Below are positions 17,760 through 30,364 of a stretch of DNA of 64,000 bases, one piece after another. The position numbers were made by a program, and so were the translations under genes. The DNA lies in NCBI GenBank assembly GCA_902462305.1, contig CABQBC010000008.1:20775-84774 (forward strand), in the 5' to 3' direction. The stretch's first letter is position 1. Each line of letters opens with the position of its first letter. The notes below the pieces were generated by a model. That model did no database searches. It saw only the letters and a list, made by a program, of their open reading frames with translations, and was not told the origin of the DNA. Origin of the DNA: an uncultured Flavobacteriales bacterium (GTDB taxonomy: Bacteria; Bacteroidota; Bacteroidia; Flavobacteriales; UBA1820).

Positions 17760-17806
17760 AAAAAAAAACTGAAACGCCATACATGACACCACGTATAGCG
17801 TTTCAG
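17760..17806 (-). terminator. terminator of metF
   Basis: On the minus strand the stem is ctgaaacgc ... gcgtttcag (9 bp) followed by T9. It lies 22 nt downstream of the metF stop. Confidence 0.7.
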
Positions 17807-27448: not shown

Positions 27449-28537
27449 ATGGAGCATTTCGTAGTATCGGCACGTAAATACCGCCCCCGCACTTTCGACC
27501 AGGTGGTAGGACAACAACACGTGGCCCGCACGCTTGAAAACGCCATAGAGAACAACCAGCTGGCACAGGCCATGCTGTTTTGCGGGCCGCGCGGAGTAGG
27601 CAAAACCACCTGCGCGCGAATACTGGCGCGCGAGATAAACCGCCGCACGATGCCCGATGCGCAGGACGAGGATTTCGCGTTCAACATACACGAACTCGAC
27701 GCTGCCTCCAACAACTCGGTAGAAGACATACGAACCCTGATAGACCAGGTGCGCTTTGCCCCGCAGACCGGCAAATACAAAGTGTACATCATCGACGAGG
27801 TTCATATGCTGTCTCAGGCGGCGTTCAATGCGTTCCTCAAGACATTGGAAGAGCCGCCGGCGCACGCCATTTTCATACTCGCCACAACCGAAAAGCACAA
27901 GATACTGCCCACGATACTGTCCCGCTGCCAGATATTCGACTTCAAACTCATATCGGTAGAGGACATACGCGAACACCTGGCAAGGATAGCTGCCGACCAA
28001 GGCGTTACGGCGGACGGCGAATCCCTGCACATGATAGCCACGAAAGCCGAAGGCGCATTACGCGACGCGCTGTCGATATACGACCGCGTGGTCAGCTTTT
28101 GCGGACGTGAACTGACAGGGGCCAAAGTGGCCGAAACGCTCAACGTGCTGGATTACCAGACTTATTTCGACCTTACGGATGCCATTCTGGGCTGCGACAT
28201 ACCCTCTGCCATGCTCCAGTTCGACAAAATACTGCGTACGGGATTCGACGCGCAGTATATGCTCTCTGGGCTGGCCTCGCACATACGCGATTTGATGGTA
28301 TCGAAAAATCCGGCCACCGTGTCGCTTCTTACCGTACCGGACGACGTCAAAGCCCGCTATTCACAACAGGCGTCCCGCCTGGATTGCGATGCGGCGGTGG
28401 AAGCGCTCACCATACTGGCACAGGCACAGGCTGAATACCGCCTGTCCAAAAATCCACGCCTTCTGACCGAAATAACGCTCATGAGGCTCGCTTCGCTGGG
28501 TATGGACCCTTCAAAAAAAAAAGCCCTGACTTTATAA
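27449..28537 (+). CDS. dnaX: DNA polymerase III subunit gamma/tau, clamp-loader domains I-III; this frame ends just after an A10 run
   Basis: 362 aa with RPRTFDQVVGQQH, Walker A GPRGVGKTT, Walker B IIDEVHMLS, and sensor SRCQ. The frame stops 5 codons after A10 (28513-28522). Confidence 0.93.
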   Translation: MEHFVVSARKYRPRTFDQVVGQQHVARTLENAIENNQLAQAMLFCGPRGVGKTTCARILAREINRRTMPDAQDEDFAFNIHELDAASNNSVEDIRTLIDQVRFAPQTGKYKVYIIDEVHMLSQAAFNAFLKTLEEPPAHAIFILATTEKHKILPTILSRCQIFDFKLISVEDIREHLARIAADQGVTADGESLHMIATKAEGALRDALSIYDRVVSFCGRELTGAKVAETLNVLDYQTYFDLTDAILGCDIPSAMLQFDKILRTGFDAQYMLSGLASHIRDLMVSKNPATVSLLTVPDDVKARYSQQASRLDCDAAVEALTILAQAQAEYRLSKNPRLLTEITLMRLASLGMDPSKKKALTL

Positions 28538-28572
28538 TCCCGCCTCAGGTTTACAGGCATTTTTCGTCCGCC

Positions 28573-29277
28573 TTGCCTTCCAGAGAGGAAATACTGTCTT
28601 TTATAGGCGAACTCCGACGCGGCCTGCAAGTGCCTTTTACGGAAAAAAAACTCCACTCCCCCGCCCCGCAGGCGCAAAACGCCAATCCGCAAATCAGGGA
28701 GAACCCGCCAGCGGCGTCGGAAAATAAACCTGTAGCCCCGGCACATATCTCCACCCCGCACACCGGGGAAAAGAAACCCGCCGTAGAACTGCGTCCCACG
28801 GAAATAACGGCCATTAAAGCGCGTTCGGCATTGTCGATAAGCAATATGCTAGCCCCTAAAAAGGAACCGGCTGCCCAGGAAACAGAAGAGAGCGAAGAAA
28901 GAAAAGACGATGCCTTCACCTGCGAACAATTACTCTCAATGTGGAGCAAATATGCCTCTCAGGCAAAAGATGACAAACGCATAGGACTATACACAGCCAT
29001 GTGTTCGGCCGATGTATCGCTGGAAGAAAACCATACTATAGGAATAACGGTAAGCTCGACAGTAATAGCCCGCGAAATAGAAGACGAAATACTGGATATA
29101 CTCCGTTTTTTAAAAGACGCTCTGAACAACACACAGATAACGCACAACATAACAGTAAGCGAAAGCGCGCGCGAACACATACCGTACACCCCGCGCGAGA
29201 AATACGAATATCTGCGCCTTAAAAATCCATTGATAGAAGAACTGAGGCGCACTCTGGACCTTAACATAGACTTCTGA
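28573..29277 (+). CDS. dnaX: C-terminal (tau-specific-like) portion of DnaX, in the -1 frame
   Basis: This frame is open from 28435, so it overlaps the end of the upstream ORF across the A10 run. A low-complexity Pro/Ala/Glu linker is followed by the conserved C-terminal block (WSKYA...LNNTQITHNITV...LKNPLIEELRRTLDLNIDF), as in full-length Bacteroidota DnaX. Confidence 0.8.
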   Translation: MPSREEILSFIGELRRGLQVPFTEKKLHSPAPQAQNANPQIRENPPAASENKPVAPAHISTPHTGEKKPAVELRPTEITAIKARSALSISNMLAPKKEPAAQETEESEERKDDAFTCEQLLSMWSKYASQAKDDKRIGLYTAMCSADVSLEENHTIGITVSSTVIAREIEDEILDILRFLKDALNNTQITHNITVSESAREHIPYTPREKYEYLRLKNPLIEELRRTLDLNIDF

Positions 29278-29281
29278 ACAA

Positions 29282-30364
29282 ATGGGACGACGATACTTAC
29301 GACTGATACTGCTTCCTCTGTGTCCCGTATGGGCACTCGTAACGCAACTGCGCAACGAATTGTACCGCGCAGGCGTGGTACGTAGGCGGGAATTTCCGCT
29401 GCCTACGTTCGTGGCCGGAAACCTGTCGGCCGGCGGCACAGGCAAAAGCCCTCATACCGAATTCCTGGCGCGCAAACTCTCACGCGCAGGAATAAAAACG
29501 GCCATACTCAGCCGTGGATACGGACGCCGCAGCCTCGGATTCATACTCTCGGACGATACGAGTACCGCCGCCACGATAGGCGACGAACCTATGATGATGA
29601 AACGCAGCCTAAAAGGCGTTGACATCGCGGTAGCCGAAGACAGGGCGTTCGGCATCGAAAAACTCATTGAAAAGATATCGCCGGAGGCTATCGTAATGGA
29701 CGATGCGTACCAACATCTGAAAGTCCGGGCATCGTGCTATTTCCTGCTTACGACATTCGCCCGTCCGTTTACCTCCGACTACCTGTTGCCGGCCGGCGAC
29801 CTGCGCGAAATGCGTATGAACGCCGAACGCGCACACTGCGTCATCGTGACCAAGACCCCCGAACAGTACACAGGAAGTACACCTGAAGCCATCGCAGGGA
29901 GAGAACGTTACAGACATGCCATTAAACGCTATACGTCGGCGCCGGTCATCTTTTCCACATACAGTTACAGCCCGCGCGTAATATCCTGCTCCGGCGACGA
30001 GATAAAGTCTGAAGAACTGAAAAAATACGGCCTGCTTCTGGTAACGGGAGTAGCCGACCCCACACAATTCCTGGAGCATATCGGCTCGCTCGGAGCGTCA
30101 TTCAGGCATTTGAATTTCCCGGACCATCATTTTTTCAGCCTGAAGGATGCGCAAAAAATAGAATCGGCGTTACATGATATGCCGGGGGACAAAAAAAACA
30201 TAATCCTTACCACCGAAAAAGACCTTGTAAGACTCCAGGGTATATTGCCGGCGCATTTGCCTCTTTATTCCATGCCGATAGAGGTACGTATGTCGGAGGA
30301 AGACGAAGCGGTTTTCGATTCCGTCGTTTCGTCCGCATTGGAAAAATATAATCTGAAAATATAG
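29282..30364 (+). CDS. lpxK: tetraacyldisaccharide 4'-kinase
   Basis: 360 aa with the P-loop GNLSAGGTGKSP preceded by the typical N-terminal membrane anchor. SRGYGR and DDAYQH blocks are present. Confidence 0.92.
   Translation: MGRRYLRLILLPLCPVWALVTQLRNELYRAGVVRRREFPLPTFVAGNLSAGGTGKSPHTEFLARKLSRAGIKTAILSRGYGRRSLGFILSDDTSTAATIGDEPMMMKRSLKGVDIAVAEDRAFGIEKLIEKISPEAIVMDDAYQHLKVRASCYFLLTTFARPFTSDYLLPAGDLREMRMNAERAHCVIVTKTPEQYTGSTPEAIAGRERYRHAIKRYTSAPVIFSTYSYSPRVISCSGDEIKSEELKKYGLLLVTGVADPTQFLEHIGSLGASFRHLNFPDHHFFSLKDAQKIESALHDMPGDKKNIILTTEKDLVRLQGILPAHLPLYSMPIEVRMSEEDEAVFDSVVSSALEKYNLKI

What the first reader, a model, noticed from the sequence alone, without database searches (positions are those of the whole stretch)
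28435..28575. dnaX is split at an A10 run: the 0 frame gives a gamma-like product and a -1 slip restores a full tau-like protein
The dnaX frame (27449-) runs through A10 (28513-22) as KKK and stops 5 codons later (…MDPSKKKALTL*). The -1 frame is open from 28435 through the A-run and continues to 29277. It encodes the Pro/Ala-rich linker and conserved C-terminal block expected of full-length DnaX, so the fused product would be about 610 aa. A one-base slip on the A-run would therefore produce tau, while normal decoding gives a 362-aa gamma-like clamp-loader subunit. E. coli makes gamma by -1 ribosomal frameshifting on A AAA AAG, and Thermus makes it by transcriptional slippage on an A-run. Here the polarity is reversed, with the short form as the default. 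Tau's C-terminal domains are normally essential, so there are two explanations. One is a homopolymer sequencing error, which is the mundane and a priori more likely reading. The other is obligatory programmed slippage.
Basis: partly seen in the sequence, partly recalled or inferred. Interest (0 to 1): 0.6.

Follow-up and report, generated by a model that had tools for sequence, protein, structure and literature searches.

The report
Split dnaX needing slippage for tau
The DNA-replication gene dnaX of this gut Flavobacteriales bacterium really is split at a run of ten A's, so normal decoding gives a short clamp-loader subunit and the full-length tau subunit needs a one-base slip; this layout is conserved, is not a sequencing error, and was already described for other Bacteroidota in 2013.

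Summary
dnaX (27449-28537, 362 aa) reads through A10 (28513-28522) as KKK and stops four codons later. The -1 frame is open from 28435 to 29277, and a fusion at the run gives 609 aa.

It is not a sequencing error. Every relative at 73-99% identity ends ...KKK[AVL]LT[LSIT]*. Four diverged lineages carry exactly A10 with the tau part in the -1 frame. An unbiased look-up anchored on the neighbouring lpxK gene found only the split form.

The -1-frame peptive starting two codons after the run (DFIIPPQVYR) aligns with the same motif in single-ORF homologues. The fused protein matches NCBIfam NF011531 end to end.

Of 76 scorable Bacteroidota dnaX loci, 62 carry exactly A10 at this boundary. Tau sits in frame 0, -1 or +1 depending on lineage, and the codon phase of the run varies. 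This favours transcriptional slippage by RNA polymerase over E. coli-type -1 ribosomal frameshifting. No stimulatory hairpin or SD-like element is present.

The two-ORF dnaX class, in which tau needs recoding at A10, was published by Antonov et al. 2013 (Flavobacterium, Cytophaga, Capnocytophaga, Chlorobium). This is a real, functional but known kind of recoding site in a new lineage.

The parts
27449..28537 (+). dnaX 0-frame ORF. It gives a 362-aa gamma-like clamp-loader subunit (AAA+ domains I-III) that ends ...DPSKKKALTL*.
   Evidence: ORF list and translation. Pfam hits to DNA_pol3_delta2, AAA, DNAX_ATPase_lid and DNA_pol3_gamma3. NF011531 positions 1-366.
28513..28522 (+). A10 slippery run, the recoding site. 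The first A is the third base of TCA(Ser) and the remaining nine are three AAA(Lys) codons in frame 0.
   Evidence: Sequence. Exactly A10 in four diverged lineages of the clade, in 11/11 loci found without bias, and in 62/76 Bacteroidota loci.
28535..28537 (+). 0-frame stop TAA, which ends the gamma-like product four codons after the run. It lies inside the -1-frame Ile-Ile codons ATA ATC.
   Evidence: TAA or TAG sits at the same place in L001-L007.
28527..28529 (+). +1-frame stop TGA. Transcripts with A9 or A12 would also give a short gamma-like product (...SKKKP* or ...SKKKKP*).
   Evidence: Frame analysis and sequence.
28522..29277 (+). Tau-specific part in the -1 frame: 251 codons plus stop, covering the linker and C-terminal domain. 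It is translated only after a one-base slip at the run. The frame is open from 28435.
   Evidence: Translation. NF011531 positions 415-613, E 1e-25. The fused 609 aa matches model positions 1-613 as one stretch, 666 bits.
28528..28557 (+). Conserved -1-frame motif DFIIPPQVYR, starting two codons after the run and upstream of any candidate start codon.
   Evidence: Conserved as [FY]I[IV]P[PA]xV[YF]R in L001, L004 and L006. It aligns with [FY]IIP[PA]..[YF] of single-ORF homologues.
28903..29274 (+). C-terminal globular domain of tau (DUF8439/PF28557 type, 124 aa).
   Evidence: PF28557 on the equivalent ORF in relatives and on full-length homologues. AlphaFold model with mean pLDDT 84. Only weak fold matches, which include the E. 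coli tau C-terminal domain.
29282..30364 (+). lpxK, the conserved downstream neighbour. It is context only and served as an unbiased anchor for sampling other assemblies.

Best explanation
This is a genuine, evolutionarily conserved two-ORF dnaX. Standard transcription and translation of the A10 template give a 362-aa gamma-like clamp-loader subunit.

The 609-aa tau subunit carries the linker and the C-terminal domain that tethers the polymerase in studied systems. It is made only from the fraction of expression events in which one extra base is gained at the A-run.

The most likely route is programmed transcriptional slippage (realignment). RNA polymerase slips on the T10 template stretch and produces mRNAs with A9, A10, A11, A12 and so on. 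Transcripts with A11 (or A8 or A14) put the downstream ORF in frame and give tau. Transcripts with A10, A9 or A12 terminate within 1-4 codons and give gamma-like products. A -1 ribosomal slip on A_AAA_AAA may add to this.

Shown: the gene architecture, its conservation, and the homology of the -1 ORF to the C-terminal part of full-length DnaX. Inferred: the slippage itself, its level, and the function of the two products.
For: (1) Not an artefact.
- All close relatives at 73-99% identity are 362-363 aa and end KKK[AVL]LT[LSIT]*.
- Exactly A10, a 0-frame stop four codons later and a -1-frame PF28557 ORF are seen in four diverged lineages from independent ENA, NCBI and Logan assemblies.
- The lpxK-anchored sample, which does not depend on run length, gave 9/9 shown places with A10 (22 contigs read). 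A pattern scan that allowed A7-A13 gave 2/2 with A10.
- Fused 609-aa versions are absent from a 15-billion-protein collection.

(2) Tau is continuous across the run.
- The motif [FY]I[IV]P[PA]xV[YF]R starts two codons after the run. It is conserved in the clade and aligns to single-ORF homologues.
- Candidate start codons in the -1 frame are not conserved in position, and all lie outside the conserved motif.
- The fused protein matches NF011531 at positions 1-613/614 in one stretch.

(3) Transcriptional rather than ribosomal.
- Across 76 scorable Bacteroidota loci, 62 have exactly A10 at this boundary and 68 have A9 or longer.
- Tau is in frame 0 in 51 loci (40 with A10), in frame -1 in 22 and in frame +1 in 3. 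The run starts at codon position 1, 2 or 3 in different lineages.
- The +1 arrangement is conserved in three Paludibacter lineages and many independent assemblies. A -1 ribosomal shift cannot serve it.
- The window has no significant 3' stem-loop (z -0.34) and no SD-like motif about 10 nt upstream.

(4) Precedent.
- T. thermophilus dnaX slips on A9 (Larsen 2000, as described in PMC1088944).
- Antonov 2013 proposed the same mechanism for two-ORF dnaX genes with A10.
Against: - There is no direct RNA or protein evidence for this organism or, in the papers I could read, for any Bacteroidota member.
- In the window's own clade tau is in the -1 frame and the run contains A_AAA_AAA in phase, so -1 ribosomal frameshifting would give the identical protein (S-KKK-S...). 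Sequence alone cannot exclude it.
- The 2016 review by Atkins et al. describes the reversed type in terms of ribosomal frameshifting for at least Chlorobium phaeobacteroides.
- AAA is the preferred Lys codon here (70 AAA to 21 AAG in five genes), so three AAA codons in a row in a single genome is weak evidence by itself.
Confidence: 0.75

Rival explanations
1. Programmed -1 ribosomal frameshifting is the main route. Ribosomes on unedited A10 mRNA slip back one base on A_AAA_AAA (P and A sites on Lys codons) and continue in the -1 frame to make tau.
For: The heptamer A_AAA_AAA lies in the correct phase of the 0 frame. Tau is in the -1 frame in the whole window clade. The E. coli precedent uses A_AAA_AAG, and the 2016 review discusses the reversed type as frameshifting. 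In Flavobacterium relatives the run is phased as A_AAA_AAG (L029, L033, L034).
Against: - The conserved element is ten A's, three more than a heptamer needs.
- Its codon phase varies between lineages.
- Paludibacter lineages keep A10 with tau in the +1 frame.
- There is no significant downstream stem-loop and no SD-like element at the E. coli spacing.
- From my own background knowledge, not tested here: Bacteroidota ribosomes make little use of SD pairing.
Confidence: 0.2
2. Homopolymer sequencing or assembly error: the true gene is one ORF with A11 or A8.
For: Homopolymers are error-prone, and a single genome cannot decide the matter. One relative (L037, Flavobacterium sp. YO12) has A9 where its close relatives have A10.
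Against: The same A10 and the split ORFs occur in many independent short-read assemblies of this species, sampled without regard to run length. They also occur in diverged species whose flanks differ at synonymous sites. No fused version is on record.
Confidence: 0.01
3. A truly split gene. The gamma-like protein and the C-terminal domain are made as two separate polypeptides, by reinitiation or an internal start, or the downstream ORF is a decaying remnant.
For: Gene callers do call a separate downstream ORF of 193-263 aa. The stop of ORF1 is close to candidate starts such as TTG 28573.
Against: - Candidate starts differ in position and codon between lineages, and none is conserved.
- The conserved motif directly after the run lies upstream of the window's first candidate start and would be lost.
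- That motif is contiguous with domain III in single-ORF homologues.
- The downstream ORF is intact and conserved across about 25% protein divergence, so it is not decaying.
Confidence: 0.03
4. DNA-level phase variation. Replication slippage changes the run length in subpopulations and switches tau on or off.
For: Homopolymer tracts are classic phase-variation sites.
Against: From general knowledge, dnaX/tau is essential, so an OFF state would be lethal. The consensus run length is invariant (A10) in every assembly examined.
Confidence: 0.01

Closest known systems
Two-ORF dnaX with poly-A, tau requiring recoding (Antonov et al. 2013, NAR 41:6514, PMC3711429). Examples: Flavobacterium johnsoniae, F. 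psychrophilum, Cytophaga hutchinsonii, Capnocytophaga ochracea, Chlorobium spp., Coraliomargarita.
   Same: The same gene and the same position at the domain III/linker boundary. The same A10 run, a -1 offset at the DNA level, the short product by standard decoding and the long product by recoding (searches compared).
   Different: A different lineage: uncultured gut 'Flavobacteriales bacterium' MAGs at only about 60% identity to Flavobacterium DnaX. The local context differs, with TCA-A9-GCC and the run starting at codon position 3. Nothing differs in kind.
Thermus thermophilus dnaX transcriptional slippage on A9 (Larsen et al. 2000, as summarised in PMC1088944 and PMC5009743).
   Same: A homopolymeric A run at the gamma/tau boundary. 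Nearby stops in the frames that do not encode tau. Two products from one gene through heterogeneous mRNA (proposed here, shown there).
   Different: In Thermus, tau is the templated product and gamma comes from slipped transcripts. Here gamma is templated and tau needs the slip. Most single-ORF Bacteroidota dnaX genes in my survey are of the Thermus type but with A10.
E. coli dnaX -1 programmed ribosomal frameshift (A_AAA_AAG with an SD stimulator and a 3' stem-loop).
   Same: The same gene and boundary. An A-rich slippery heptamer in phase. The same outcome of two DnaX forms.
   Different: The polarity is reversed. No stem-loop or SD-like stimulator was found. The run is longer than a heptamer and its phase is not conserved across the phylum.
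Shigella flexneri mxiE, and IS-element transposases that use transcriptional slippage to fuse two ORFs (PMC1088944).
   Same: Slippage is required for the longer, fused product.
   Different: These are regulatory or mobile-element genes, not an essential replication gene. They use runs of different base and length.

Membership tests
Two-ORF dnaX with recoding for tau (Antonov 2013 type) | The ORF for DnaX domains I-III ends a few codons after a poly-A run (7-10 A). | tested here: met
   362-aa ORF, A10 at 28513-28522, stop four codons later.
Two-ORF dnaX with recoding for tau (Antonov 2013 type) | The tau-specific C-terminal part is encoded by the adjacent ORF, offset by -1 at the DNA level. 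| tested here: met
   -1 frame open 28435-29277. It matches NF011531 positions 415-613. The fused protein matches positions 1-613. PF28557 is found on the equivalent ORF of relatives.
Two-ORF dnaX with recoding for tau (Antonov 2013 type) | The frameshift position, direction and motif are conserved among orthologues. | tested here: met
   Four diverged lineages and many assemblies show identical A10, a -1 offset and a stop four codons downstream.
Two-ORF dnaX with recoding for tau (Antonov 2013 type) | Both products, gamma and the fused tau, are actually made. | not testable with these tools
   No RNA or protein data are available.
Thermus-type dnaX transcriptional slippage | A sense-strand A run of at least 9 at the gamma/tau boundary. 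| tested here: met
   A10. Its position aligns with the runs of homologues.
Thermus-type dnaX transcriptional slippage | Tau is encoded in the templated frame and gamma comes from slipped transcripts. | tested here: not met
   The templated frame gives the 362-aa product and tau is in the -1 frame.
Thermus-type dnaX transcriptional slippage | Stop codons lie close to the run in the frames that do not encode tau. | tested here: met
   The 0 frame stops after 4 codons and the +1 frame after 1-2 codons.
Thermus-type dnaX transcriptional slippage | The mRNA population has variable A-run length. | not testable with these tools
   No transcript data are available.
E. coli-type dnaX -1 PRF | An X_XXY_YYZ slippery heptamer in the 0-frame phase. 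| tested here: met
   A_AAA_AAA at 28513-28519 and 28516-28522. It is not the A_AAA_AAG of E. coli.
E. coli-type dnaX -1 PRF | An SD-like stimulator about 10 nt 5' of the site. | tested here: not met
   The upstream sequence gcttcgctgggtatggacccttc has no GGAGG/AGGAG-like element. The nearest GAGG is about 27 nt upstream.
E. coli-type dnaX -1 PRF | A stimulatory stem-loop a few nt 3' of the site. | tested here: not met
   The first 17 nt 3' of the run are unpaired in the MFE fold, and the fold of 100 nt is no better than shuffles (z -0.34).
E. coli-type dnaX -1 PRF | The frameshift product is the short gamma. | tested here: not met
   The shifted frame gives the long product.
Full-length DnaX (tau) | A C-terminal extension homologous to that of single-ORF DnaX in the same phylum. 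| tested here: met
   50% identity over 100% of the fused query to Flavobacteriia DnaX of 560-650 aa. The junction alignment supports this, as do the NF011531 matches.
Full-length DnaX (tau) | The C-terminal domain has the fold of E. coli tau domain V, which binds Pol III alpha. | tested here: inconclusive
   The model has pLDDT 84. No Foldseek hit reaches E<=1e-3. The weak hits include 5fku_E (E 0.09, TM 0.40), 2aya (E 0.44) and DnaA domain I (4tps_B, TM 0.47/0.64). A PDB sequence search found nothing relevant.

The most novel reading that the evidence does not exclude
The window's site may be one state of a phylum-wide slippage module. Nearly all Bacteroidota dnaX genes keep exactly A10 at the gamma/tau boundary. 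The tau reading frame has toggled repeatedly between 0, -1 and +1, even within a genus: Paludibacter has A11 in frame in one lineage and A10 with tau in +1 in another, and Flavobacteriaceae have both 0 and -1 arrangements.

This would imply that RNA polymerase slippage on A10 supplies useful amounts of both +1-nt and -1-nt transcripts, so that any frame arrangement is viable. The +1 arrangement and the near-universality of A10 in single-ORF genes are not stated in the papers I could read. Antonov 2013 reports only -1 two-ORF genes.
Probability: 0.55. Interest if true: 0.5.

Novelty: new member of a known kind. Interest (0 to 1): 0.3.

Why it matters
For this genome the main consequence is annotation. 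The 362-aa 'DNA polymerase III subunit gamma/tau' and the following 'hypothetical/DUF8439' ORF are one recoded gene. Tau is not missing, and the locus should not be flagged as a pseudogene or an assembly error.

More broadly, an essential replisome subunit here depends entirely on non-standard decoding. The gamma:tau ratio is therefore set by the slippage rate of RNA polymerase (or the ribosome). The comparative pattern of conserved A10 with a movable frame gives a clean natural system for measuring transcriptional slippage in Bacteroidota. The principle itself has been in the literature since 2013.

Tried and rejected
- **Circular look-ups.** Look-ups by the exact 362-aa product gave 18/18 loci with A10. 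This is circular, because only A10 can encode that product. I replaced it with the lpxK-anchored look-up and a variable-length DNA pattern scan.
- **Genome scan missed the window's clade.** Taxonomy therefore rests on NCBI names of cluster members, 'Flavobacteriales bacterium'. The scan did give an unbiased phylum-level sample.
- **Pfam gap.** The local Pfam copy gave no hit for the -1 ORF. It appears to lack PF28557, which the precomputed tables show. NCBIfam settled the homology.
- **Structure route.** The PDB sequence search and the Foldseek search gave no significant match for the C-terminal domain.
- **RNA structure.** There is no convincing stimulator 3' of the run. Upstream there is only a 4-bp GGGU/ACCC hairpin 3 nt before the run, which is no better than shuffles and is explained by the conserved Gly/Asp-Pro codons.
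- **Other scans.** Rfam found nothing in the window. The promoter and terminator scan found nothing above the shuffle expectation between the ORFs.
- **Chance and codon usage.** Chance occurrence of A10 in 64 kb is not excluded on composition alone. Lys codon bias makes AAA AAA AAA unremarkable in one genome.
- **Literature.** Larsen et al. 2000 (PMC26496) is not held. Searches for experimental work on Bacteroidota dnaX recoding found none.
Full report
**1. Observation**

- An ATG at 27449 opens a 362-aa ORF with the full set of DnaX N-terminal domains: DNA_pol3_delta2, AAA, the ATPase lid and gamma domain III.
- Frame 0 reads TC[A AAA AAA AAA] GCC CTG ACT TTA TAA. The A10 run lies at 28513-28522 and the product ends ...MDPSKKKALTL*.
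- The -1 frame is open from 28435 to 29277.
- The +1 frame closes at TGA 28527-28529.
- Adding one A, or a -1 slip, gives a 609-aa protein.

One A10 in 64 kb of this composition is not surprising by itself: 1 was found and 1.18 are expected. The case rests on where the run lies and on its conservation.

**2. The split is real, not a sequencing error**

*Relatives.* A search with the fused protein showed that every close relative, at 99% down to 73% identity over the N-terminal part, is a protein of about 363 aa. More distant Flavobacteriia homologues (about 50% identity) are single proteins of 560-650 aa that cover 100% of the fused query and carry PF28557 (DUF8439) at the C-terminus. The short relatives all end ...DP[SAV]KKK[AVL]LT[LSIT].

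*DNA of three further lineages.* I fetched L001-3, L004-5 and L006-7 from independent ENA, NCBI and Logan assemblies. Each shows:
- exactly A10;
- a 0-frame TAA or TAG four codons later;
- a -1-frame ORF with PF28557;
- the same downstream genes, lpxK and a PNP_UDP_1 gene.

The flanks differ at many synonymous sites.

*Within the window's own species.* Look-ups by the 362-aa product gave 18/18 loci with A10. That test is circular, because only A10 can encode that product. I therefore anchored on the neighbouring LpxK protein, which does not depend on run length. All nine places shown (22 contigs read; the index lists 362 blocks) have the 362-aa DnaX and A10. A DNA pattern that allowed A7-A13 found two JGI contigs, both with A10. 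Fused 609-aa versions of the four commonest strain variants are absent from the 15-billion-protein collection.

*Organism.* NCBI names members of the cluster as MAGs of 'Flavobacteriales bacterium'.

**3. The -1 ORF is the rest of DnaX, and it is continuous with the first ORF**

- NCBIfam NF011531 (DNA polymerase III subunit gamma/tau, 614 positions) matches ORF1 at positions 1-366 and the -1 ORF at positions 415-613.
- The fused protein matches positions 1-613 as one stretch at 666 bits, just below the curated cut-off of 685.
- In an alignment of conceptually repaired split genes with single-ORF genes, the window's -1-frame peptide SPDFIIPPQVYRHF falls directly after the KKK. It lies on the motif [FY]IIP[PA]..[YF] of single-ORF homologues, for example Aquimarina DGEKKNDQPYIIPPSYF.
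- Within the clade this motif is conserved ([FY]I[IV]P[PA]xV[YF]R) and starts two codons after the run. Candidate start codons in the -1 frame differ in position and type between lineages, and none lies between the run and the motif.

This argues against a separately initiated second polypeptide.

*C-terminal domain.* The C-terminal 124 aa fold confidently (pLDDT 84) but have no significant PDB neighbour. The weak matches include the E. coli tau C-terminal domain (5fku_E, 2aya) and DnaA domain I. Structural equivalence to tau domain V is therefore suggestive only.

**4. Mechanism**

I scored 80 Bacteroidota representative genomes returned by the genome scan, of which 76 could be scored.

| Arrangement | Loci | Run length |
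|---|---|---|
| Split at an A-run at this boundary | 25 | 22 with A10, 1 with A9, 2 with A12 |
| Single ORF | 51 | 40 with A10, 2 with A11, 1 with A9; the other 8 have A7 or shorter, or no run |

- Of the 25 split loci, tau is in the -1 frame in 22 and in the +1 frame in 3.
- In the 43 single-ORF loci with A9 or longer, the run lies at the same place (codons about 345-387). Both alternative frames close soon after it: within 1-9 codons in the -1 frame and 1-15 codons in the +1 frame. This is the Thermus thermophilus arrangement.
- The run starts at codon position 1, 2 or 3 in different lineages. The encoded peptide therefore varies (EKKN, xKKK, KKKx) while the nucleotide run does not.

*The +1 arrangement is real.* I followed up L069 (Paludibacter). 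Three lineages at 88-94% identity, seen in many independent assemblies, all have A10 with tau in the +1 frame. The nearest single-ORF relative has A11 in frame. A -1 ribosomal shift cannot serve those genes.

*What unifies the cases.* The one explanation that covers all three arrangements is slippage of RNA polymerase on the homopolymer, which yields transcripts with both added and lost A's. In the window, A11, A8 or A14 transcripts encode tau. A10, A9 or A12 transcripts end within 1-4 codons as gamma-like proteins.

*No ribosomal stimulators.* The window lacks the E. coli-type stimulators. The 100 nt 3' of the run fold no better than shuffles (z -0.34). The only upstream hairpin is a 4-bp stem explained by conserved codons. 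No SD-like element sits about 10 nt upstream.

*Remaining doubt.* For the window's own clade, a -1 ribosomal slip on A_AAA_AAA would give the identical protein and cannot be excluded from sequence. I put transcriptional slippage as the main route at about 0.7-0.75 and ribosomal frameshifting at about 0.2. The reality of programmed recoding of some kind I put at about 0.95.

**5. Comparison with what is known**

- Antonov et al. [quoted passage not shown] They found 17 genes from 12 genera spanning two ORFs with a -1 offset. Nine have A10, including Flavobacterium johnsoniae, F. psychrophilum, Cytophaga hutchinsonii and Chlorobium spp.; Capnocytophaga ochracea is in the same alignment with a shorter run. 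They proposed transcriptional realignment by analogy with Thermus.
- The Atkins et al. 2016 review repeats this. [quoted passage not shown]
- Baranov et al. 2005 summarise the Thermus A9 mechanism and its roughly 50% efficiency.

The window's gene meets every sequence-level criterion of the Antonov class. It fails the Thermus and E. coli classes on polarity, and fails the E. coli class on stimulators as well. It is therefore a new member, in an uncultured gut Flavobacteriales lineage, of a known kind.

I found no experimental demonstration for any Bacteroidota member in the searchable literature.

**6. Verdict**

- The implied novelty of 'reversed polarity' does not hold.

Interest is modest at 0.3. 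The most novel reading the evidence leaves open is the phylum-wide pattern: exactly A10 is kept almost everywhere while the tau frame toggles among 0, -1 and +1, including a conserved +1 type in Paludibacter. I did not see this described in the papers I could read.

Noticed in passing
L008-L086 (single-ORF dnaX loci), e.g. L009 codon 356, L058 codon 354: 40 of 51 single-ORF Bacteroidota dnaX genes also carry exactly A10 at the gamma/tau boundary; two more have A11 and one has A9. In these 43 loci the -1 frame closes within 1-9 codons and the +1 frame within 1-15. This is a Thermus-like layout in which gamma would come from slipped transcripts.
   Followed up: partly
L069 2501-4247; L117-L125; L126-L127: A Paludibacter subclade has A10 with the tau part in the +1 frame. 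This is conserved in three lineages and many independent assemblies. Its nearest single-ORF relative has A11 in frame. This direction is not among the -1 cases reported in 2013.
   Followed up: yes
L037 (Flavobacterium sp. YO12), L061, L032, L075: These loci have odd run lengths or frames. L037 has A9 with tau in +1, while its close relatives have A10 with tau in -1. L061 has A10 with tau in +1. L032 and L075 have A12 with tau in -1. They are either true variants or homopolymer errors in single assemblies.
   Followed up: no
window 28534-28539; the same position in L001-L007, L029-L045 and many single-ORF loci: The stop that ends the short product is embedded in the conserved Ile-Ile/Ile-Val codons of the tau motif (ATA ATN or ATA GTN gives TAA or TAG out of frame). 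The same ATAAT recurs after the run in many Flavobacteriia loci of both arrangements. ATA is a common codon here, so significance was not established.
   Followed up: partly
Protein cluster of P0001: The downstream-ORF proteins (P0123 at 215 aa, P0129 at 234 aa, P0125 at 193 aa) are filed in the same 90%-identity cluster as the 362-aa DnaX, although they share no sequence with it. This hints at a bridging (fused) member somewhere in the collection. Exact look-ups of four fused variants found none.
   Followed up: partly
window 28573-29277 and equivalents (L001 4104-4895, L004 3126-3890, L006 4197-4829): Gene callers annotate the tau C-terminal part as a stand-alone protein with Pfam DUF8439 (PF28557). 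Its start differs in every lineage, and even within the species (193, 215 or 234 aa). DUF8439 appears simply to be the C-terminal domain of Bacteroidota DnaX.
   Followed up: partly
P0011 (371 aa), P0021 (373 aa): Two database proteins have the clade's C-terminal two-thirds, including KKK[AV]LT[LI]*, joined to an unrelated DnaX N-terminus. They are probably chimeric metagenome contigs.
   Followed up: no
window 17760-17768 and 28643-28650: The only other long A runs are these two. The A9 at 17760-17768 lies between ORFs, so it is apparently intergenic. The A8 at 28643-28650 lies inside the tau linker coding region in the -1 frame (E-KK-L).
   Followed up: partly
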